A stretch of DNA of 64,000 bases from Eledone cirrhosa (taxonomy: Eukaryota). Position numbers and translations under genes: made by a program. Positions 3,558 to 57,520 of this stretch are shown here, one piece after another. The notes beneath the pieces are model-generated. The model was given only the letters and a program-made list of their open reading frames with translations, had not been told where the DNA came from and did not search any database. Numbering within the stretch: position 1 is the first letter of the stretch; every line of letters starts with the position of its first letter. The stretch covers positions 53,506,001 to 53,570,000 of the forward strand of contig OZ024751.1 of the NCBI GenBank assembly GCA_964016885.1. Reading direction: 5' to 3'.

Positions 3558-3647
3558 ATGGGGTGGGGGTATATATATATATATATATGGAAAGGGACTA
3601 GTGAGGTTATGTGCCTCCATGGGGTGGGGTAAATATATATATATATA

Positions 3648-6600
3648 TGGAAAGGGACTAGTGAGGTTATTGATTGGTTTAAAGAAATTAAATATACCTA
3701 TAATAATAAGTTTATTCAGCTGGATATTGCTAACTACTATTCATCTATCACTCCTAATCTACTGAATAAGGCACTAAATTACGCATTTAAACATACTGAC
3801 CTAACTAGCAATGAAATGCACATTATATTATCGGCAAGGAAAACATTGATAGAATTTAATAACCAACTCTGGACTAGGGCAGATAGAAATAATAATTTCG
3901 ACATAACTATGGGATCATCAGACTCAGCTCAGGTAACGGACCTTGTGGGCCTATTTATAATTAATTCGCTACATAGAAAAATACCAGGTGTAACCGGAGG
4001 CTTATATCGTGATGACATGCTTTTACTTATACAAAATAATAGCTGTGAACTAAATAGGAAAAGAAAACAAATTATACAATTTTTTAATTACCATAATCTA
4101 AAAGTAGAAATAGAGAATAACCATAAAATAGTCAATTTTCTTGACGTAACACTAAATCTCAACACATGTCTTCATTATCCATTTCACAAACTAAATGAGA
4201 ACTTGAATTATGTTAATTTTAACTTTAATCACCCCAGATCTGTTAAAAATACTATAGTGAACTCTGTTCAAGAAAGAATTTCAAGAATTTCATCTAATAA
4301 AAATATATTTGATGAAAAAGCGCAGTATTACAACGAAGCGTTAGGTAGAGCTGGATATAGAAATGAAATTAAATACATTGATAATAATAATAATAAGCAA
4401 ACTAACCAAAATAATAACAATTTTAATTATGGTAACAACTTTAGCAACTATAATAGAAAACATTACAATAATTCCAAAAGCCGAAAAAGAAATAGAACTA
4501 GAAACATATTATGGTTTGCTCCCCATTTAGTGAGAAAGGTCTCACTATTATGGTTTGCTCCCCTATTTAGTGAGAAAGGTCTCACTAAATATTAAAACCC
4601 CTATTGCTAAACTATTCTTTAAAGCTCTTGACAAACGCTTCCCTAGAACACATAAATATTACTCAATTTTTAATAGACACACTATAAAATTAACTTACTC
4701 GTCCACCAAAAATTTAGCACAAAATATTAATAGAATTAATAATAGAAATTTAAAACCTAACCAAAATACCAATAATAACCCAAGCAATATTCAATTGAAT
4801 AACTGTAACTGTAGAAATAAATCTAACTGTCCGTTAAATAACAACTGCTTAGCTAAAAATGTAGTGTACAATTGTAATGTTAAAACTAATTTAAATTCGT
4901 TTAACTATGTTGGTTCTACCTCGACTGAATTTAAATTTCGCTTCAATAATCATAAAAATTCTTTCACAGATCTAAACAAAAAATCTTCAACTTCGCTATC
5001 TAGCCTACTATGGGACCTAAAACGAGATAATGTTAAATATTCGATGACTTGGAATATTATTTCACAAGCTACTCCTTTTAATTCCTCTTCAGAAAATTGT
5101 GATCTTTGTATTGAAGAAATATTCTTTATATTAAAGTCCAAAAATTCCCTTAATTTAAGGAACAATTTATTCAGTTGCTGCAGACATATATTGAACTCAA
5201 CGTTTAAATATAAATATAAATTTAAAATGTAGTATAATTAATTAAGTAATTTAGTTAATATATAAAACCTGTCGATAAATCATTAGATTCCTTCACCTTT
5301 TTATTTTTAAACTTTCTTCCTAAATATAAACATAGATATAATAAACTACTTTAAAATGTCTATACTTACAATATCTTAAATAAAATATACGTAGGATAAA
5401 TTTCTATACTAAATATAAGGATATCTGTAGAATCCTTGGTTTTTTAAATCTTTTAAATTCTTTTAAATTTTGAATTTTAAATATTTTTAAATTCTTTTTG
5501 AAATTTTTAGATCTTTAAATTTTTAAATTTTTAAATTATATTGATATAATATTTATTTAACTTTTATTTTATTTTATTTTATTTTTATTTATTTTTATTA
5601 CTTTTGCTTTTGATTCTGATAGCTTCTCATAATTCTCATAAGTCTACCCTTTCAATATCTTGATTGAAATATAAGTAGGATAATTTTCTATACTAAATAT
5701 ATGAAACATATTATTTTAACTTAAGATACTCTATAGTGTTTTAAAGTTATTTAATGCTTTGACATTTCTAGAATTCATTTGTCCTTTTGACTATATTGAT
5801 ATAGTTGTATTTCCAAAATATAATCCTTTGGTATTTTAAATTTATATTGGTATAATTATATTTCCAAAGTATAATCCTTAGTAATATATTGATATTTGAT
5901 TATCTCTATAGAAAAGTATATGTGTGTATTAACATGCATATAAAAGTGTTATAGGTTTTTTTATGATTGTACATATGTCTGTATGTATACATGAGCGATG
6001 CATGATGACGCACGCAGATATTTATTTATTTATACATATATAGGTGTATATGTATATATGTGTGTGTATGTATATGTGTGGGTAAAACTTATGTTGCATA
6101 ACCACGCAGTTTGGATTGCAGAAATGTTAAATGCATGAATGGTAATCATATATATGAAGTCATGAAGGTTAATCGTATATATTTATGTGTATATATACTG
6201 TGAACTTTTTATAACACAAGGAATGTATAACAGTGATTAAGAGAAATCGTCTGCGCTATATATGTCTATATTGTTGACTTGAGAAAATATAATTTCTATT
6301 TTCAGGACGTGCGTGTATATATATATATATATTTGTGCGTCTTTGCCTGAGATACTTCTATAGCAATGTGTACATTTTGGAGATTAAACCCAAATTTTGG
6401 CATATTGATCTCAAGGTTTAAACTAAACATATAGTCATTATTAAACAATGTTTAATTTCTCATATTATATATCTATGTCCCATTCATGAATATTAATATT
6501 TATATTTTTATTATTCATTTCATATGAATTGTTAACTCAACTTAACATGACATGACGTAAAGTTTTCATAATCTCCCTCTCTCTCTATATAACATTTCTC

Positions 6601-34732: not shown

Positions 34733-34849
34733 CAAATACCATTCTTCATTCCAAAGTGAGTCAGAAAAGGCGTCTTTCCTGTAAAGTCCCAATCTCTTTG
34801 CAGACCGCTTGGTTCGTCGTTTGATCTGTTGTTGTTCAACCCAAGCAAC
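34733..34849 (-). CDS. PCSK1: PC1/3-like exon with prodomain cleavage site
   Basis: cag|GTT...TTG|gtaagt, 117 bp, VAWVEQQQIKRRTKR/SAKRLGLYRKDAFSDSLWNEEWYL. Confidence 0.92.
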
Positions 34850-34971
34850 CTGGATATTGCAAAGAAGAATTTATAGATATTTAGTACTTGGTATGATAAT
34901 TTGGTGTTCTTTGGATTACATTTATGCTGAAAATTATCAGTTTGTTTGTGGAACCACAGGAAAAAATTTGC

Positions 34972-41653: not shown

Positions 41654-41753
41654 AATTAAAATACTAGAGTGTGTTGGAGTTAAACACCCTCTTCATATTA
41701 TAGAAATGACAGTAAAGATATAGCTCAATGTAATTAAACAGAGCCGAAGAATT

Positions 41754-43625
41754 ATGAAAATAAACCAAAACTTAATTATGGCCATGAGAGTGTCTAGCCT
41801 TACACGATCACAGATTGATATTATACTAGCAGCCCGTAGAACTATCATCAATTTCGAGGATACATTTTGGACGCGTAAAAACACGCCCAACAATTTCGAC
41901 GTTACAATGGGTTCGAGTGATTCGGCCCAGGTAACTGATCTTATTGGGCTGTTCCTCCTAAATGAACTGTATATTACCTTTCCGCACCTTAAAGGCGGAC
42001 TTTATCGTGACGATGCATTGTTTGTGATTAACTCCAGCACCAATAACATCGAGCATAATAGGAAGAAACTTTATAAGTTTTTTAAAAGCTTTAACCTTTC
42101 GATCACAATAGATAGAAATGATAGAGCGGTCAACTTTTTAGATCTGACTTTGGACTTGGTCACTAATAGTTTTAAACCCTTCCATAAGCCTAATGAAATA
42201 CTCTCTTATGTTAGTCCCAATTCTAACCACCCCAAATCTATGATAAGCTCTATAATTAATGGTGTATCTAATAGAATTTCCACACTCTCTAAGGACATAG
42301 GAATATTTAATGCACATGCTGAGTACTATAATAATGCCCTAGCTAACTCCGGTTACTCTGGTATAATACATTATAATAATAGTAACCTTAGAAAGTCTCC
42401 GCTTACATATAATAATAATAACATAATATCCCATAATATGGCCATGAATGGGAGTAGAAAGCATAAGAATCGTAGAAATCCCATAGGTGTATCCGAACCC
42501 ATCCATAAGTTAAGACACCGGATTCGTAATAGGGAATCTAATAGTTCTAGGGATCAAGTTGGGCACTCTGAGCGCTCACTCAGTGGTAATGCTTTTGCTA
42601 AATCTAATGTTTTTACTAATTCTAATAGTATTGTTTCTACTGATCCTATTAGTAGCCCTAATCCTATTGATATGATTCCAGATAGTAGTAGATATACTAA
42701 AGGTAGAAACAGAAGGAGACTCAATGGGGTTTCGGCTGATTCTAATAATGTGGTTTCAACTAGTCCTCGTAGTAACCCAGATCTTAATAATGGGATATTA
42801 GATAACGGTAGAGTTGGTAAGGATAGAAATAGAAGGAGACTAAATACTTATTTTAACCCGCCATATGATCAGGAAGTATTAACTAACATCCCTAGGTCTT
42901 TCTTTTCTATCTTAGAGAAAAGTTTCCCTCCTACTAATAAATACCATGGTATTTTTAATAAAAATGTAATTAAACTATCATTCTCTACCACCCCTAATAT
43001 TAGTTCTCATTTAGCTAGCACTAACAATAGGAAAATTAGGGACGGCTACTCCTCTTTGCGTACTACTAGTCTGGATAGATCCATAAATGCCTTACCACTT
43101 GAGCAGACCTTATCTCATAGTAACCCTACGAGTGATGCATCACTACTTCAGCTTATCAATAGCACCCGGAAGTGTAATTGTAGAGTGAGTGTTAACTGCC
43201 CTTTAAACGGTAACTGCCTCTCTAGGAACATTGTTTATGCTTGTGTAGTTAAAACTAATTCCTCTAATAGCACATATATAGGCTCAACATCTAACACTTT
43301 TAAGACTCGGTTTAATTCTCATATCTCTTATTTTAAACATGTTAAGTTTAAGAATTCTACTTCTTTAGCACACCATATCTGGGATCTTAAGGAGGCTAAT
43401 ATACCATATAGCCTTAATTGGCGAATAGTAGCACGCTCTAATAACCTATCAACACACACTAAATTCTGTAATCTCTGTATCCTTGAGACCCACTCTATAA
43501 TTTTCTCTAGGGAACTCTTACTTAATAGAAAGTCTGAGATATTTTCTTCCTGCCCCCACGCCATTTCTAATTCTTACTTTTATTATAAACCTAAAAGTTC
43601 TGGTAGTGTAAATTGTATCCATTAG
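41754..43625 (+). CDS. Penelope-like RT (C-terminal part) plus GIY-YIG endonuclease, 623 aa, 5'-truncated
   Basis: TMGSSDSAQVTDL, LYRDD, VNFLDL, SNHP, FNPPY, CNCRVSVNC, IVY..YIG..RFNSH, CNLC..E; the first codons derive from the inverted pLTR. Confidence 0.9.
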   Translation: MKINQNLIMAMRVSSLTRSQIDIILAARRTIINFEDTFWTRKNTPNNFDVTMGSSDSAQVTDLIGLFLLNELYITFPHLKGGLYRDDALFVINSSTNNIEHNRKKLYKFFKSFNLSITIDRNDRAVNFLDLTLDLVTNSFKPFHKPNEILSYVSPNSNHPKSMISSIINGVSNRISTLSKDIGIFNAHAEYYNNALANSGYSGIIHYNNSNLRKSPLTYNNNNIISHNMAMNGSRKHKNRRNPIGVSEPIHKLRHRIRNRESNSSRDQVGHSERSLSGNAFAKSNVFTNSNSIVSTDPISSPNPIDMIPDSSRYTKGRNRRRLNGVSADSNNVVSTSPRSNPDLNNGILDNGRVGKDRNRRRLNTYFNPPYDQEVLTNIPRSFFSILEKSFPPTNKYHGIFNKNVIKLSFSTTPNISSHLASTNNRKIRDGYSSLRTTSLDRSINALPLEQTLSHSNPTSDASLLQLINSTRKCNCRVSVNCPLNGNCLSRNIVYACVVKTNSSNSTYIGSTSNTFKTRFNSHISYFKHVKFKNSTSLAHHIWDLKEANIPYSLNWRIVARSNNLSTHTKFCNLCILETHSIIFSRELLLNRKSEIFSSCPHAISNSYFYYKPKSSGSVNCIH

Positions 43626-45779
43626 CTGCTATATTCCCTTATCTTTTTTGTTTAGGTTCATTTTGTTTACCACCATCATTATCATTATTATTATTGGTTT
43701 TTAACAGCTTTTCGATTTAGCTTTCATAGTCTTTTGGCTGCCATACCATATCTATCTTCTTAAATATTATATTTTCACTATTAACACCTTATGAGTTTAT
43801 ATCTGATTATATATTTTATTTTGATTTTCATTTAGATAATTAACCCCCCCCCCCCCCCCCACACACACACTTATCATTCGCCCCTTCAATTATACTATAA
43901 TTATATTCAATTCCCTTTTATGCTCCTTTCTATTGTATTATACAGTATATTGATTATGATTTTATGCTCCTTCGTATCCTCCATACCTTTCTTTTTTCTG
44001 TTCCCATTGGCCTACCATAGTTCTATTTAAGGTCATTTTATTAGATAACGTTATTCAACTGAAAGTAGAATATTTCATTCTATCCTGGATATTTTTATTG
44101 AGATATCTTAAACTTTAGAGATTTTGATAACTTAAACCATAGCTAATTTTGTATTGACTTATTATGTATTTTAAATACTTTCAATATTAATTAATTTAAT
44201 AAGGTTTTCTAGTCATTTATCCGGGTTTGATTCCTAACTTTTTTTACTTAACTGCTTGTGACACCTAAGTAAATATATTTGTTTTTGTTTTTCGATTTCC
44301 GGTTGATTTTATTTATATTTTTTTTACTACCGTGCGTAGTTTCTGTCTGGTTCTTATTCACTTATTCACATATGTCTGTCTACCAACCATGTAATTATGT
44401 ATACTATACTATGTTTGTTATTTGATATTGAAGTTGTTATATCATATCATGTAATCGTACTATAGATCTTAAATATTTACCGATTATTCGATGTACCCTT
44501 ATGTTAAATTTTGTAAATTCTGTAATATGTTTATATTTTTATAATTTTTATAATGTTTAAATAATATTTATTTATACCAATTGTATAAAAACTCGACCTC
44601 TGTCTGTTTTGTTACAACGGTATAGATATTTTTCCAGCACAATTTTTTCAACACAATTTAGTTCTGTATGATATTTTTTCTCACCCTGTGTGTAATTTTA
44701 TATGATTTGTTAAGTTATATGCCAATATATTATAATATTGTTATTATAGTGTTATTGTAATATTTATATTGTTTGTGCAAATTGACCGGAGATTATAAAT
44801 TATATTTTTATTTTTATTCATTTCTATATCATTTTATACTGTAAATAATATATGTATTATGTTTATATTTAAACTCTTAATAAGTGTTAGTTTGTGTTTG
44901 TATTGATGGATATGTGTATTGATATATATATATATGTACATATGTATATATATATATATATGTATATTGGGCCTTTTAATATTATTATTATTATCATTAT
45001 CAATTATATTATATAATATTATATTATATTATATATCGTACTGTGGTGATATCCAATTTTAGCTGTCTAAATGCCGCTTACTTGCTGCAGTTGCTGCTTA
45101 CTTCAATGTATGAGGCTATTCCAACAAATTTACATTCCCCTTCTTTTTAGCTGTTAAAAGAAATATAGATTTTTTTTTTTGCGATTTATTAGAGAGGGGG
45201 GTGCTCCCTTCTCTTACCTGTACAAGCCGATATAGAGAGATGGCCCACGTACACGGGCCATTATTGCTACTTTCACCCATCTTTCATGGAATTGGCTGGG
45301 ACTGAGTGCCTTTTTCTCCAAGAGGACCATTTGTTGGCCGGCGACATATGCCCACAGTTTCCTCGTTGCAAACGCATCTGGGACATTTCTTTTCCAAGGG
45401 GTTTCCGTCCCGGAATCCGTGTCTGTAGAGCCTTTCCTGAACGGGCAGGGCCCCTCGGTATAATAGTAAGTATTAGTGGTTGTAATAAAAATGCAATCAA
45501 AATGTAATAAATACCTTCACTGATTTCTTCTCCACAGTAAGACAAATATCCATGTGTAGTTGAAGAGGATAAGTATGAAAGAACAGTCATTTAAATTTAC
45601 AGATGGACAGATGTGGTGTTTGGCAGGGTTTGAGATATATAGAAAAATAATTATTTACAGAAAAAGAAAATAATAATAAAGAATTATTATAATTTTTTTA
45701 AAGATTTATATCTTTTTGGACTTTTGGAAGCAAATTTTAAACTGTATATCGCAACAATAAAAAAGAAAAAAATATTTCT

Positions 45780-46766
45780 TTAAACAATATATTGTTCCGA
45801 TATACAGTTTAAAATCTTTGGGAAACATCTACCGTCTCCACTCATAAAGCTGTCATTTCGCCACCGCCACATGAATTCATTCAAATATGACAGAAACATG
45901 GGTCGGCTAGTGCCGTTTATTTATTTATTTTTTTTTTTGGCATGAGACCAGAGTCCTTCAATATGTTGGGTATGCGTTCCTGATACCGGATCGACAAAAT
46001 TTAGTGAATGATTCATTGTAGAGTGCTGATAATTAACAGGCATATATCATATGGGATTGTACGCACGCCATCGGTCTGTATGTATCATGGATCCACTCAG
46101 CACATGATTTTGTATAATGGGTAGCAGGGTCTCAGCAGTGCGATCTGGGATTTCTTGAAGAAAAATTTTTCTGGGATTATTGGTATCGATCCCACCAATG
46201 ACCCAATGGCCTTCATGCCAGGTCCCACGAGCGTACTTTCGATGAAAGTATTTACTTTCATCGATTTGTACAACTATTGGGACTCCGTCATCATCCATTC
46301 CACCTAGTTTTGATGGGTTTCGATCCACCCATTCACTGCACACGTCCCGTAATAAGTTGCACCAGTTAATAATGGTGTTTTCACTACACCGAATCTCGTC
46401 AGCAATAATAATATTTTCGAACCCAATTGACCAGAAATAAATCATATAAATCATTTGATGTAAATCTAAGTGGCCTTGAAAAAAAAATGACCCAGAACGG
46501 ACAGATTTTCTTAAATTCCATACCTTACATTTCCATCGAAATTGGTCGATTCCTTCTTTGTAACTTACAAACGAACAGGAAATATTACATGAAGGACAGT
46601 TCATAGTGTTTGAAAGTAATCGGTTCCGAGCCATAAATTCGATAATACTGAGTTTGTTTGCAGTTAAAATCGCCAGTTCCCTCATTTTCAAATCCATATT
46701 TAACGTCTGCTGTGATGAATTAACATTTTCAACAATGAAAATTGGTGCAGGTGGACGTCCAGGCAT
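45780..46766 (-). pseudogene. Merlin transposase, left (mirror) copy, same two stops
   Basis: 239-aa ORF identical to 47150-47869; the continuation mirrors the right copy. Confidence 0.9.
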
Positions 46767-47149
46767 TTTCTTTATTCAGAATTTCAGTTTAAAATCAATT
46801 AGAACTATGTTATTTCACCTTTAACAATATCTGCATTGAAATGACCGACAGGGAGCTAGTTATGCCAATTCGTGGAAAATACCCAAAGATTATGTATATT
46901 AATATAAGTTTCACTTTATTGTGGAAAATAACCCAAAATTATAAATATTAGCCCCCTGTCGGTGATTATCTTATAATTGATTTTAAACTGAAATTCATAA
47001 AGTGAAACTTATATTAATATACATAATCTTTGGGTATTTTCCACGAATTGGCATAACTAGCTCCCTGTCGGTCATTTCAATGCAGATATTGTTAAAGGTG
47101 AAATAACATAGTTCTAATTGATTTTAAACTGAAATTCTGAATAAAGAAA

Positions 47150-48136
47150 ATGCCTGGACGTCCACCTGCACCAATTTTCATTGTTGAAAATGTTAATTCA
47201 TCACAGCAGACGTTAAATATGGATTTGAAAATGAGGGAACTGGCGATTTTAACTGCAAACAAACTCAGTATTATCGAATTTATGGCTCGGAACCGATTAC
47301 TTTCAAACACTATGAACTGTCCTTCATGTAATATTTCCTGTTCGTTTGTAAGTTACAAAGAAGGAATCGACCAATTTCGATGGAAATGTAAGGTATGGAA
47401 TTTAAGAAAATCTGTCCGTTCTGGGTCATTTTTTTTTCAAGGCCACTTAGATTTACATCAAATGATTTATATGATTTATTTCTGGTCAATTGGGTTCGAA
47501 AATATTATTATTGCTGACGAGATTCGGTGTAGTGAAAACACCATTATTAACTGGTGCAACTTATTACGGGACGTGTGCAGTGAATGGGTGGATCGAAACC
47601 CATCAAAACTAGGTGGAATGGATGATGACGGAGTCCCAATAGTTGTACAAATCGATGAAAGTAAATACTTTCATCGAAAGTACGCTCGTGGGACCTGGCA
47701 TGAAGGCCATTGGGTCATTGGTGGGATCGATACCAATAATCCCAGAAAAATTTTTCTTCAAGAAATCCCAGATCGCACTGCTGAGACCCTGCTACCCATT
47801 ATACAAAATCATGTGCTGAGTGGATCCATGATACATACAGACCGATGGCGTGCGTACAATCCCATATGATATATGCCTGTTAATTATCAGCACTCTACAA
47901 TGAATCATTCACTAAATTTTGTCGATCCGGTATCAGGAACGCATACCCAACATATTGAAGGACTCTGGTCTCATGCCAAAAAAAAAAAAAAATAAATAAA
48001 CGGCACTAGCCGACCCATGTTTCTGTCATATTTGAATGAATTCATGTGGCGGTGGCGAAATGACAGCTTTATGAGTGGAGACGGTAGATGTTTCCCAAAG
48101 ATTTTAAACTGTATATCGGAACAATATATTGTTTAA
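47150..48136 (+). pseudogene. Merlin/ISXO2-type DDE transposase, right copy, two in-frame stops
   Basis: N-terminal CPSC zinc-ribbon-like motif, VQIDES, HTDRWRAY; after TGA (47867) the frame continues NHSLNFVDPVSGTHTQHIEGLW, then TAA (47993), then SYLNEFMWR. Confidence 0.9.
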
Positions 48137-49078
48137 AGAAATATTTTTTTCTTTTTTATTGTTGCGATATACAGTTTAAAATTTGCTTCCAAAAGTCCAA
48201 AAAGATATAAATCTTTAAAAAAATTATAATAATTCTTTATTATTATTTTCTTTTTCTGTAAATAATTATTTTTCTATATATCTCAAACCCTGCCAAACAC
48301 CACATCTGTCCATCTGTAAATTTAAATGACTGTTCTTTCATACTTATCCTCTTCAACTACACATGGATATTTGTCTTACTGTGGAGAAGAAATCAGTGAA
48401 GGTATTTATTACATTTTGATTGCATTTTTATTACAACCACTAATACTTACTATTATACCGAGGGGCCCTGCCCGTTCAGGAAAGGCTCTACAGACACGGA
48501 TTCCGGGACGGAAACCCCTTGGAAAAGAAATGTCCCAGATGCGTTTGCAACGAGGAAACTGTGGGCATATGTCGCCGGCCAACAAATGGTCCTCTTGGAG
48601 AAAAAGGCACTCAGTCCCAGCCAATTCCATGAAAGATGGGTGAAAGTAGCAATAATGGCCCGTGTACGTGGGCCATCTCTCTATATCGGCTTGTACAGGT
48701 AAGAGAAGAAGGGAGCACCCCCCTCTCTAATAAATCGCAAAAAAAAAAAAAAATCTATATTTCTTTTAACGGCTAAAAAGGGGGGGGGGGGTGTAAATTT
48801 GTTGGAATAGCCTCATACATTGAAGTATGCAGCAAGTAAGCGGCATTTAGACAGCTAAAATTGGATATCGCCCGTACTGTAATTCTCGCCTTGTATCACC
48901 ACTTGTGTTTAGTTTTAGTTTTTGCATTGTACTATATTTGTAATATGGGTTCAAAATGTTATTCACTTCCTTAGCAATTTTTACTTGATAATTTTCCTAT
49001 GCTTTAATGTATGTATACTCCATATTCTTCTGAGTTTTTGGCTTGTATTGGCCGATAGTGCTTCTTATAGCTTTACTT

Positions 49079-49116
49079 GCCCTGATGAGTCCTTAATAGG
49101 ACGAAACATTGTTGGC
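49079..49116 (+). ncRNA. Minimal type I hammerhead ribozyme in pLTR of element B
   Basis: GCC-CTGATGA-GTCC ttaata GGAC-GAAA-C att G-TT-GGC, followed by AATAAA at 49118. Confidence 0.85.
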
Positions 49117-49157
49117 TAATAAAGACTTTTGATGTATTGAAGGCTTCTTTGGTTTAT

Positions 49158-49494: not shown

Positions 49495-49526
<32 letters not shown>

Positions 49527-49530
<4 letters not shown>

Positions 49531-50230
49531 TAAACGGAATAGAAAATGCTGACAAATTGTTCACAGTTGAAAAATGGTTTAATTAGGAATAAAAGAGTGT
49601 TAGTGATTGTATGGGTTAGTATTCAGTTGTGGTTTTAAGTTTTTAAGTTTTTACCGGTTGCGCATTTCTAAATGCTTTTCAAAAATAATTTTGAGATAGA
49701 GTGTCCGTGCTGTTTGCTCTGATCTGATTAGTTTTGGGAATTCTACCTGTTTTTATGTTAAAAAAATGGCTCCAGCGTTATTTTTGTGTTGTAAAAATGC
49801 TTGTGGTCAAAACAATTTTGATTGGTCGGTAGAGGTCATGTGAATGTAAAAAAAAAAAAATTTTTTTTTACATTCACATGACCTCGACCGACCAATCAAA
49901 ATTGTTTTGACCACAAGCATTTTTACAACACAAAAATAACGCTGGAGCCATTTTTTTAACATAAAAACAGGTAGAATTCCCAAAACTAATCAGATCAGAG
50001 CAAACAGCACGGACACTCTATCTCAAAATTATTTTTGAAAAGCATTTAGAAATGCGCAACCGGTAAAAACTTAAAAACTTAAAACCACAACTGAATACTA
50101 ACCCATACAATCACTAATACTCTTTTATTCCTAATTAAACCATTTTTCAACTGTGAACAATTTGTCAGCATTTTCTATTCCGTTTACCAATATATAATAA
50201 CTTGTGTGTTACACCTCTATTCTTTTAACT
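49527..50230. repeat. Spacerless palindrome with ~330-bp arms and a short tail
   Basis: Centre A-run|T-run at 49860/49861; arms nearly identical; flanked by (TA)n. Confidence 0.92.
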
Positions 50231-50287: not shown

Positions 50288-50455
50288 ATCATGTTTAATA
50301 TAGAAATGGCTTCTACGGGACTAAAACTATTTCATTCAAAAGGAAATCAGCAGGAAAGCTTTCTAGTCCTGTAGAAGCCATATCTATATTTAACATGATG
50401 ATTAGACTCTACTAATGTATTGAGTGATTACTCCAGATTGAACCCGAGACTTTCA
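50288..50455. repeat. Short inverted repeat with tail
   Basis: atcatgtttaatatagaaatggcttctacgggacta ... tagtcctgtagaagccatatctatatttaacatgat, then a ~55-bp tail, between (TA)n. Confidence 0.75.
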
Positions 50456-50470
50456 TATATATATATATAT

Positions 50471-50685
50471 ATAGGAAAATGTTTAACCCTGACGGCAGAG
50501 CTCAAGCCATTTCGACGGCTATTTCTGGACTAAATTCTGAATTTACTCCAGAAATAGCCGTCGAAACGGCTTGAGCTCTGTCGTCGGGGTTAAATATTTT
50601 CCTATTACCCACTCTACTTCCCTAAGTATTGAGTAACTCTGGTGCGTTATGGTCCATCTGGTTCCTTATCACACCTCCTTCGTTA
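50471..50685. repeat. Inverted repeat with tail carrying the 3' half of a hammerhead
   Basis: ~59-bp arms, 17-bp spacer; GAAA-CGGC ttgagctct GTCG-TC-GGGG; related fragment at 24582-24640. Confidence 0.75.
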
Positions 50686-56880: not shown

Positions 56881-57034
56881 TATATTCATTATTTAATGTC
56901 TACTTTCCCTGCTAGCAAAGATTGGACAGGTCTACATAAACCAAGTCAATACTGAAAAGGGGCTACTGATATATATTTCTGACATATTTCATTGCATGAG
57001 GGATGGGAGAGTGATGTGGACAATAGCTACTTAC

Positions 57035-57139
57035 TCTGTGGTCATCAGAGAGCCGTTTGGTCAGGTGGTCAACAGATCTTCGAATTCTAGTTGGTAATAA
57101 CGAATGTGTCAGTACATAGTGGTCAGTCAGAGGTGAAAT
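57035..57139 (-). CDS. PCSK1: Proprotein convertase PC1/3-like, prodomain exon (first coding exon found in window)
   Basis: cag|ATT...AGA|gtaagt, 105 bp, ISPLTDHYVLTHSLLPTRIRRSVDHLTKRLSDDHR; resembles the PC1/3 prodomain (HITKRLSDDDR) and the human exon 2 size as recalled. Confidence 0.9.
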
Positions 57140-57520
57140 CTGAAGAAAAAAAAAGATACATTATGATAGATATGTGTGTGTGTAAATAATTTTAGGTTGT
57201 TTAATTGTTTCTTAACTCTTAACATCCTGTACCATATGAAACCACATTAGCAAGACATTCTTAAAAAGTACAAAACAACACAACATTGCATTAAAAATTG
57301 ATGACTTTACTCAATAATATTGAAAATGTTCACATTGATTTGTCCAAGAGTAAGGATACTATAAACATTTGAATTAACAAATATATATTTAAATATTTTC
57401 TGCTAAATAATTATAAGAAGTTAAAATTTAATGTTTAATTGCAATTATCATTTTCATATCACTGAAAAGTGTTTTTTTAATTTCTCCTGTAACAAGATGC
57501 TTCTTCTTCTTAATAATAAT

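What the first reader, a model, noticed from the sequence alone, without database searches (positions are those of the whole stretch)
45037..48880. 3.8-kb fully palindromic Merlin transposon with two mirror transposases inside one 8-bp TSD
Seen: ~1875-bp arms, a 77-bp spacer, GG..CC ends and a perfect CGTACTGT TSD. Each arm holds a whole DDE transposase reading outward, and both carry the same TGA and TAA stops. The inner ~1.7 kb is nearly identical between arms (one substitution noticed in the poly-A run), while the outer ~170 bp differs by several indels. Known: Merlin/IS1016 elements make 8-9 bp TSDs and normally have TIRs of tens to a few hundred bp around a single transposase. Inference: the outer 170 bp are the original diverged TIRs, and the interior was homogenised by an inverted duplication or arm-to-arm conversion after the gene died. 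Alternatively the palindrome is itself a mobile non-autonomous family.
Basis: partly seen in the sequence, partly recalled or inferred. Interest (0 to 1): 0.82.

Follow-up and report, generated by a model that had tools for sequence, protein, structure and literature searches.

The report
Mirror-image dead Merlin transposon in intron
A broken cut-and-paste jumping gene sits in an intron of an animal hormone-processing gene as a near-perfect 3.8-kb mirror image of itself, likely because one already dead copy was recopied back-to-front during DNA repair, and its RNA is predicted to fold into a very long hairpin that might silence related jumping genes.

Summary
The structure is as described: arms of 1875 and 1876 bp around a 77-bp spacer, GG..CC ends, one 8-bp TSD, two outward-reading Merlin/IS1595 transposases with the same two stops, and 1 difference in the inner 1712 bp.

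Contigs from public runs date it. At 13 sites, including the TGA, related copies agree against the window, and both arms carry the window's allele. So the gene decayed first (about 1.2%, neutral pattern) and was mirrored about 40 times more recently. Left-end variants occur in other copies, so both native ends were probably kept. One relative has the spacer module, a short inverted repeat and no mirrored arm, so the spacer is probably native 5' sequence.

Best reading: a single-gene Merlin whose left interior was overwritten by a reversed copy of its right part, anchored at the terminal repeat and that inner repeat. This is an extreme form of the TIR extension known from Galileo.

New here: both arms hold a LINE-like fragment, and the element lies in a 22-kb intron of a prohormone-convertase gene, so a 1.87-kb hairpin RNA is predicted (as for Mu killer). 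Mobility as a unit, silencing and long-read support are untested.

The parts
45037..45044 (+). left copy of the 8-bp target-site duplication
45045..46919 (-). left arm (mirror of the right arm)
45045..45152 (+). probable native left end (at least ~108 bp); carries a 9-bp longer variant and a shorter C/G run also seen in other copies; inner limit unresolved
   Evidence: tables 4 and 7
45170..45460 (-). mirror copy of the LINE-like 3' fragment with poly-A (11 nt)
45734..45815 (.). 82-bp hairpin over the transposase stop, left copy
45780..46766 (-). left transposase pseudogene, 328 codons; stops at 46047-46049 and 45921-45923
46920..46996 (.). 77-bp spacer: a left-facing and two right-facing 83-90% copies of motifs of the arm's 5' region; probable native centre of the family's 5' repeat region
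   Evidence: tables 5, 5c, 8
46997..47149 (+). 5' region of the right gene; one unit (~141-151 bp) of a tandem repeat seen in other copies
   Evidence: tables 4, 5c, 8
46997..48872 (+). right arm
47150..48136 (+). right Merlin/IS1595 transposase pseudogene; D169, D231, E270 kept; TGA at 47867-47869, TAA at 47993-47995; zinc-ribbon Cys83 read as Trp
48101..48182 (.). 82-bp hairpin: 26-bp inverted copy of the last transposase codons around a 30-bp loop
48456..48753 (+). 5'-truncated LINE-like 3' fragment with AATAAA and 15-nt poly-A; LINE identity rests on a recalled Cys-motif resemblance, no database hit
   Evidence: table 7 (12 contigs in X1 and 57 in X5 run on 5' of 48456); negative
48765..48872 (+). 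probable native right end; other copies end at the same base with other flanks
   Evidence: table 7 (X4, 3 contigs, agreement 0.58)
48873..48880 (+). right copy of the 8-bp target-site duplication
57029..57142 (-). host gene exon upstream of the element (S8 pro-domain of a prohormone-convertase-like gene)
34733..34852 (-). next host exon downstream; the ~22-kb intron between the two holds the element

Best explanation
This is a dead Merlin DNA transposon whose whole transposase gene is present twice as a mirror image inside one target-site duplication, likely because a single-gene copy first decayed and then had its left interior overwritten by a reversed copy of its right part during homology-directed repair. 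Shown: the mirror, the shared stops, decay before mirroring, and the position in a host intron. Inferred: the parent had a native left end, a 5' region with tandem ~150-bp units and a short inverted repeat, one transposase, a 3' region with a LINE-like piece, and a native right end. A break between the left end and the short inverted repeat would have been repaired from the element's own right side (same molecule or sister), with the terminal repeat as outer anchor and the short inverted repeat as inner anchor. That keeps the TSD, both native ends and the asymmetric centre, and copies every earlier mutation. Predicted and untested: host pre-mRNA reads through it and folds into a ~1.87-kb stem with a 77-nt loop, a substrate for A-to-I editing or small-RNA production. 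It cannot supply its own full-length transposase unless both stops are read through.
For: (1) 13 sites in 1100 bp where the X1 contigs differ from the window; X5 shows the same other allele at all 13 (at one site only in part of its contigs); both arms carry the window allele at all 13. That is 1.18% against 0.029% per lineage between arms, about 40-fold, at least ~4-fold on the 95% bounds, p=1e-7. (2) 9 of the 12 coding changes are non-synonymous or nonsense, equal to the 75% expected without selection; the TGA reads CGA in X1 and X5. (3) Left-arm-type end variants occur in other copies: the 9-nt longer form (X1 2 contigs; X4 5 loose ends), shorter G runs, and the 3-nt shorter form at 48704 (X1 3, X5 4 contigs). 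(4) One X4 contig of 513 nt reads 47047-47110 reversed, then spacer 46945-46998, then the gene start 47137-47363; about 170 nt are unplaced and do not continue as an arm (tables 2, 5, 8; limits of the reversed piece worked out from bin depths). An X1 contig joins 47115 to 46966, showing a tandem unit. (5) Precedent: Galileo TIRs recruit internal sequence, at least 545 bp of transposase and nested TEs, with repair from the other TIR proposed (PMC3573991; PMC4168063). (6) Host exons on both sides join in phase.
Against: The parent structure rests largely on one contig of one run, whose unplaced part I could not read. No read or contig spans the element, so the same two anchors could also mislead an assembler. 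No single-gene allele at this site was seen. The inner limit of the native left end is not fixed (108 to 165 bp or more). One recent copying event and repeated conversion of an older palindrome give the same divergence pattern. It is not known whether the X runs come from the window's own species or individual. Only 40 of 278 rows of the substitution table were shown, although the 13 sites account for all differences of the three X1 contigs used (5+7+1).
Confidence: 0.58

Rival explanations
1. The palindrome formed at another locus and moves as a unit, using transposase from other copies; this is one member of a small palindromic subfamily.
For: Both ends are intact with GG..CC and a perfect TSD. 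The family has other insertion sites (table 7). Relatives lack the TGA, so a transposase source may exist.
Against: The X1, X4 and X5 contigs listed across the gene carry the other allele at the 13 sites; this is weak, because contigs drop rare variants. The one relative whose centre was seen is not mirrored. No second copy in the 64-kb window.
Confidence: 0.15
2. The palindrome is older than it looks, and repeated arm-to-arm gene conversion has kept the inner 1.7 kb identical while mutations accumulated.
For: A 77-bp loop between long arms favours intra-palindrome conversion (established for long palindromes; recalled). Identity falls off only near the flanks.
Against: The outer differences match variants in other copies rather than new mutations. 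It still needs an origin event, so it mainly changes the date.
Confidence: 0.12
3. Assembly artefact: the assembler crossed from the left end to the reverse strand of the right side through shared sequence and walked the gene twice.
For: The two anchors that allow repair also allow this path. No spanning read was seen. Near-perfect identity is what an artefact gives.
Against: The flanks differ and the mirror stops exactly at a TSD, unlike a fold-back read. The arms differ at one inner site and about 6 outer events. The window has no gaps and carries a ~1-kb TA-type repeat tract without a break, which suggests long reads (inference).
Confidence: 0.09
4. Alternative (sister-chromatid) transposition with re-replication made the inverted duplication and the TSD in one step, as for the maize Ac killers.
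For: Ac composite insertions hold inverted repeats of 1.8-3.9 kb flanked by 8-bp TSDs (10.1101/2020.01.07.897926).
Against: There both arms come from the same end of the element and should be alike to the last base; here the ends differ by variants seen in other copies. The centre is native-looking sequence, not a fused break.
Confidence: 0.06

Closest known systems
Merlin superfamily (IS1016/IS1595-related) DNA transposons
   Same: GG termini, 8-bp TSD, DDE_Tnp_IS1595 domain with DDE residues; tandem and inverted repeats in the 5' region, as in Sy.m_F1 (PMC8101967, passages).
   Different: Reported TIRs are 24-462 bp; here 1.87-kb arms each hold a whole gene. 0 of 80 related metagenome loci had a second, inverted transposase (short contigs, weak control).
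Galileo extended-TIR (2RT) copies of Drosophila mojavensis and D. willistoni
   Same: Internal sequence, part of the transposase and nested TE fragments become part of both TIRs; repair from the other TIR is proposed (PMC3573991, PMC4168063; passages).
   Different: P superfamily, not Merlin. In the passages read, the longest D. mojavensis TIRs were in copies without the transposase ORF, and the D. willistoni copy recruits at least 545 bp of it; here the whole ORF and its 5' region are mirrored and only 77 bp are single.
Mu killer and Ac killers of maize
   Same: Inverted duplication of transposase sequence placed where host transcription can read through it (PMC3440606; 10.1101/2020.01.07.897926).
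   Different: Those duplicate one end and part of the gene, and silencing is shown. Here the genes point outward, the ends look like the two native ends, the host is an animal, and no RNA or silencing is shown. PMC3440606 also disputes the read-through hairpin model for Mu killer.
Bacterial composite transposons such as Tn5 and Tn10 (recalled, not read)
   Same: Two inverted transposase-bearing arms inside one TSD.
   Different: Each arm there is a complete IS with both ends around cargo genes; here there are no inner termini and no cargo.

Membership tests
Merlin superfamily | termini begin with 5'-GG | tested here: met
   feature from PMC8101967
Merlin superfamily | 8- or 9-bp TSD | tested here: met
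   8-bp perfect TSD, not extendable to 9
Merlin superfamily | DDE_Tnp_IS1595 domain with D, D, E | tested here: met
   E 6.6e-19; D169, D231, E270 invariant in 10 of 10
Merlin superfamily | usual layout: TIRs of 24-462 bp around one transposase | tested here: not met
   1.87-kb arms and two genes; filed therefore as a rearranged derivative of a Merlin element, not a typical member
Merlin superfamily | length of the parent family's native TIR | tested here: inconclusive
   at least ~108 bp; inner limit unresolved
Galileo-type extended-TIR copies | internal sequence and nested TE recruited into both arms | tested here: met
   gene, 3' region and LINE-like piece in both arms
Galileo-type extended-TIR copies | P-superfamily transposase | tested here: not met
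   IS1595-type domain; works like it, not a member
Killer loci (Mu killer, Ac killer) | inverted duplication of transposon sequence | tested here: met
Killer loci (Mu killer, Ac killer) | transcribed through both arms | tested here: inconclusive
   lies in a host intron; no transcript examined
Killer loci (Mu killer, Ac killer) | yields small RNAs and silences the family in trans | not testable with these tools
   needs small-RNA data and genetics
Composite transposon (Tn5/Tn10 type) | two complete elements, each with inner and outer ends, around cargo | tested here: not met
   BLAST of the centre against the window finds no match to the termini
Mobile palindromic family | same palindrome at other loci with other TSDs | not testable with these tools
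   no genome held; contigs do not span the element

The most novel reading that the evidence does not exclude
A natural animal 'Merlin killer': a fully mirrored transposon, possibly movable as a unit, that sits in a host intron, turns host transcription into a 1.87-kb double-stranded RNA covering the whole transposase message, and silences the rest of its family in trans.
Probability: 0.15. Interest if true: 0.75.

Novelty: new variant of a known kind. Interest (0 to 1): 0.45.

Why it matters
It catches, in one datable copy, how an ordinary single-gene DNA transposon can become a fold-back element: decay first, then a mirror anchored at the terminal repeat and at a native inner inverted repeat. 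Galileo shows partial versions; a complete mirrored gene in a Merlin did not turn up in my five searches. Because it lies in an intron, it makes a long-standing question testable in an animal: whether such inverted duplications are how a host first learns to silence a DNA transposon family, as shown in maize. If the hairpin RNA has no effect and the copy is unique, it is a curiosity of transposon decay.

Tried and rejected
No whole genome is held, so the genome-wide search for the spacer and termini could not be run.

Sequencing runs: no RNA holder listed. In the four laid runs the left part of the spacer (about 46920-46944) had little or no cover; contigs drop rare variants and hairpin centres, so I draw nothing from this. 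Contig depths were not used as copy numbers. One X1 contig covers the 5' junction of the LINE-like piece (48427-48587) with only 29 letters on one side, under the tool's 31-letter rule, so that the piece is shared by other family copies is only a hint. The second stop (TAA) lies in a run where contigs are cut, so its state in relatives is unknown. Site 47496 was counted and dropped, because the main X1 contig carries the window allele there.

LINE-like piece: no Pfam hit, no protein hit, atlas uninformative.

A 26-nt terminal pattern found 0 matches in metagenome contigs. 0 of 80 related loci had an inverted second transposase. No conserved second gene beside the transposase and no match to the 3' or 5' regions in those loci (one tblastx hit at E 0.017, taken as chance). 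The closest protein relatives are 55-63% identical over part of the length; no near-identical intact protein was found. Earlier-findings look-ups by sequence, by place and one by words were empty.

Rejected: two independent copies inserted head to head (no inner ends, one TSD, shared private mutations); fold-back read artefact (flanks are not mirrored); stop recoding by RNA editing (no evidence, and 8 further amino-acid changes including a zinc-ribbon Cys point to decay).
Full report
OBSERVATION. The arms are 45045-46919 and 46997-48872, with a 77-bp spacer, GG..CC ends and CGTACTGT on both sides. The 8-mer occurs nowhere else in the window and would match by chance with probability about 1e-5 to 6e-5. 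The inner 1712 bp differ at one base, in the poly-A run; the outer ~165 bp differ by 4 indels and 6 substitutions, about 6 events. Each arm holds a 328-codon frame reading outward, with TGA at codon 240 and TAA at codon 282. It matches Pfam DDE_Tnp_IS1595 at E 6.6e-19. 44 of 351 candidates in the protein search scored E<=1e-20, all with that domain, the closest 55-63% identical over part of the length. The three catalytic residues are kept.

SETTING. The window is animal DNA rich in TA microsatellites; an octopus-like origin is my recollection of its repeat style and was not tested. A prohormone-convertase-like gene runs on the minus strand. tblastn with 15 convertase-like proteins chosen from the 150 listed places exons at about 57142-57029, 34852-34733, 32.9, 23.9, 18.6, 13.2, 8.6, 3.0 and 2.1 kb (Pfam identity of 3 of the 15 queries). 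The exon at 57 kb matches the S8 pro-domain (E 2.3e-4, below the curated cut-off). It ends at a GT donor and the 34.8-kb exon starts after an AG acceptor in the same phase. The palindrome therefore lies in a ~22-kb intron. No exon was found between them.

WHAT THE ARMS CONTAIN. After the gene comes an 82-bp hairpin over the stop codon, a 3' region, and at 48456-48753 a fragment ending in AATAAA and a 15-nt poly-A. 12 contigs of run X1 and 57 of run X5 continue 5' of 48456 with another sequence, so this is a truncated piece of a separate repeat. Its Cys-containing motif resembles the end of a LINE ORF2 by my recollection; Pfam, a protein search and the atlas gave no confirmation. The piece is in both arms, so it predates the mirror. 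Part of the 'outer 170 bp' is this fragment's tail, not necessarily TIR.

ORDER OF EVENTS. I laid the right half plus spacer (46860-49150) on 4 of the 9 listed runs, all contigs. Three X1 contigs cover 47061-47952 and 48006-48149 with 5, 7 and 1 differences, and a fourth covers 46966-47060 with none. At all 13 sites X5, from another organism, shows the same other allele (at 47839 only in part of its contigs), so the window's alleles are derived. Both arms carry the window allele at all 13. One of them is the TGA, which reads CGA elsewhere; another turns a zinc-ribbon Cys into Trp. 9 of the 12 coding changes alter or stop the protein, the share expected without selection. The copy has thus drifted 1.18% (95% range 0.63-2.0%) from its relatives, while the arms have drifted 0.029% each (upper bound 0.16%): about 40-fold less, p=1e-7. 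The gene died first, and the mirror was made or last homogenised late. A fourteenth site used was dropped because X1 has both alleles.

THE ENDS. Three X4 contigs leave the sequence exactly after 48872 with differing flanks, which fixes the terminus and shows other insertions of the family. The left arm's 9-nt longer form, its shorter G/C run and its 3-nt shorter form at 48704 all appear in contigs of other copies. These are therefore family variants, not errors. The simplest reading is that the native left and right ends were both kept over at least ~108 bp. Whether the native TIR also includes the LINE-like tail is open.

THE CENTRE. The spacer consists of 83-90% copies of three motifs from the arm's 5' region, one facing left and two facing right. 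An X1 contig joins 47115 to 46966, which shows a tandem unit of about 150 bp upstream of the gene. An X4 contig of 513 nt reads a reversed 47047-47110, then spacer 46945-46998, then the gene start at 47137, with about 170 nt unplaced that do not continue as an arm (the limits of the reversed piece are my reckoning from bin depths). So at least one relative has the spacer module as its own 5' region, with a short inverted repeat and no mirrored gene. Direct and inverted repeats in the 5' region are described for another Merlin family (PMC8101967).

MECHANISM. Shown: mirror, shared mutations, order of events, native-looking ends and centre, intronic site. Inferred: the parent was a single-gene Merlin; the stretch between its left end and the short inverted repeat was replaced by a reversed copy of the stretch between that repeat and the right end, by repair from its own right side. 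This one step explains the intact TSD, the unequal ends, the asymmetric centre and the shared stops (0.58). Rivals: made elsewhere and moved as a unit (0.15); older palindrome kept equal by conversion (0.12); assembly path error using the same two anchors (0.09); alternative transposition as for Ac killers (0.06). Predicted and untested: host pre-mRNA folds into a 1.87-kb stem; the central 381 nt alone fold as single-stranded DNA with z = -35, which only restates the symmetry.

COMPARISON. It meets the Merlin tests of GG ends, 8-bp TSD and DDE domain, but not the usual layout of 24-462-bp TIRs around one gene, so I file it as a rearranged Merlin derivative. It works like the extended-TIR Galileo copies, in which internal sequence, at least 545 bp of transposase and nested TEs became part of both TIRs (PMC3573991, PMC4168063). 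Its geometry recalls Mu killer and Ac killers (PMC3440606; 10.1101/2020.01.07.897926), whose defining silencing activity I could not test. Among 80 related metagenome loci (the best 80 of 180), none had an inverted second transposase, and 35 had some inverted repeat, of 25-154 bp; these are short contigs and a weak control.

PAPERS. I saw selected passages only of PMC8101967, PMC3573991, PMC4168063, PMC3440606 and 10.1101/2020.01.07.897926; all other papers as search listings. The original 2004 Merlin paper was not read. No supplement was opened; the copy tables of the Galileo and Merlin papers, and Repbase, could hold a fully mirrored copy. A fully mirrored Merlin did not appear in searches of an open-access library.

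VERDICT. Real in the assembly and probably in the genome; a new, extreme variant of a known process (TIR extension by repair), with an untested but testable chance of acting as a silencing hairpin. Interest 0.45.

Noticed in passing
window 49521-50196: A second near-perfect palindrome 650 bp away: 336-bp arms, 2 mismatches, 4-nt loop in an A/T run, set in a TA microsatellite, no ORF of 100 aa or more; probably a fold-back non-autonomous element unrelated to the Merlin.
   Followed up: partly
window 50288-50399 and 50471-50605: Two small hairpin elements (46-bp arms at 85%, 67-bp arms at 93%) beside TA runs; MITE-like.
   Followed up: no
window 48101-48182 and 45734-45815: A 26-bp inverted copy of the last transposase codons forms an 82-bp hairpin; it may be the scar of an earlier small fold-back event.
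   Followed up: partly
window 48197-48393: The 3' non-coding region is nearly unchanged in contigs of three organisms (0 differences in 133 nt X1, 2 in 168 nt X5, 0 in 189 nt X6), while the listed X5 transposase contigs differ by 8-20%; unexplained.
   Followed up: no
window 45047-45152 vs 48771-48870: All six substitutions between the outer arms are T on the left against C on the mirrored right, i.e. T-G wobble pairs in a plus-strand hairpin; four lie in one run and depend on the alignment.
   Followed up: no
window 41724-43625 and 3633-5232: Two Penelope-like retroelement ORFs (recalled resemblance); weak GIY-YIG hit at E 0.003 for the first, none for the second.
   Followed up: partly
window 1950-57142, minus strand: Prohormone-convertase-like gene with at least 10 exons in the window; the first coding exon was not found and may lie beyond the window.
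   Followed up: partly
L060, L061, L064; L021, L022: Related Merlin loci with nested subterminal inverted repeats (46-101 bp) besides the termini.
   Followed up: no
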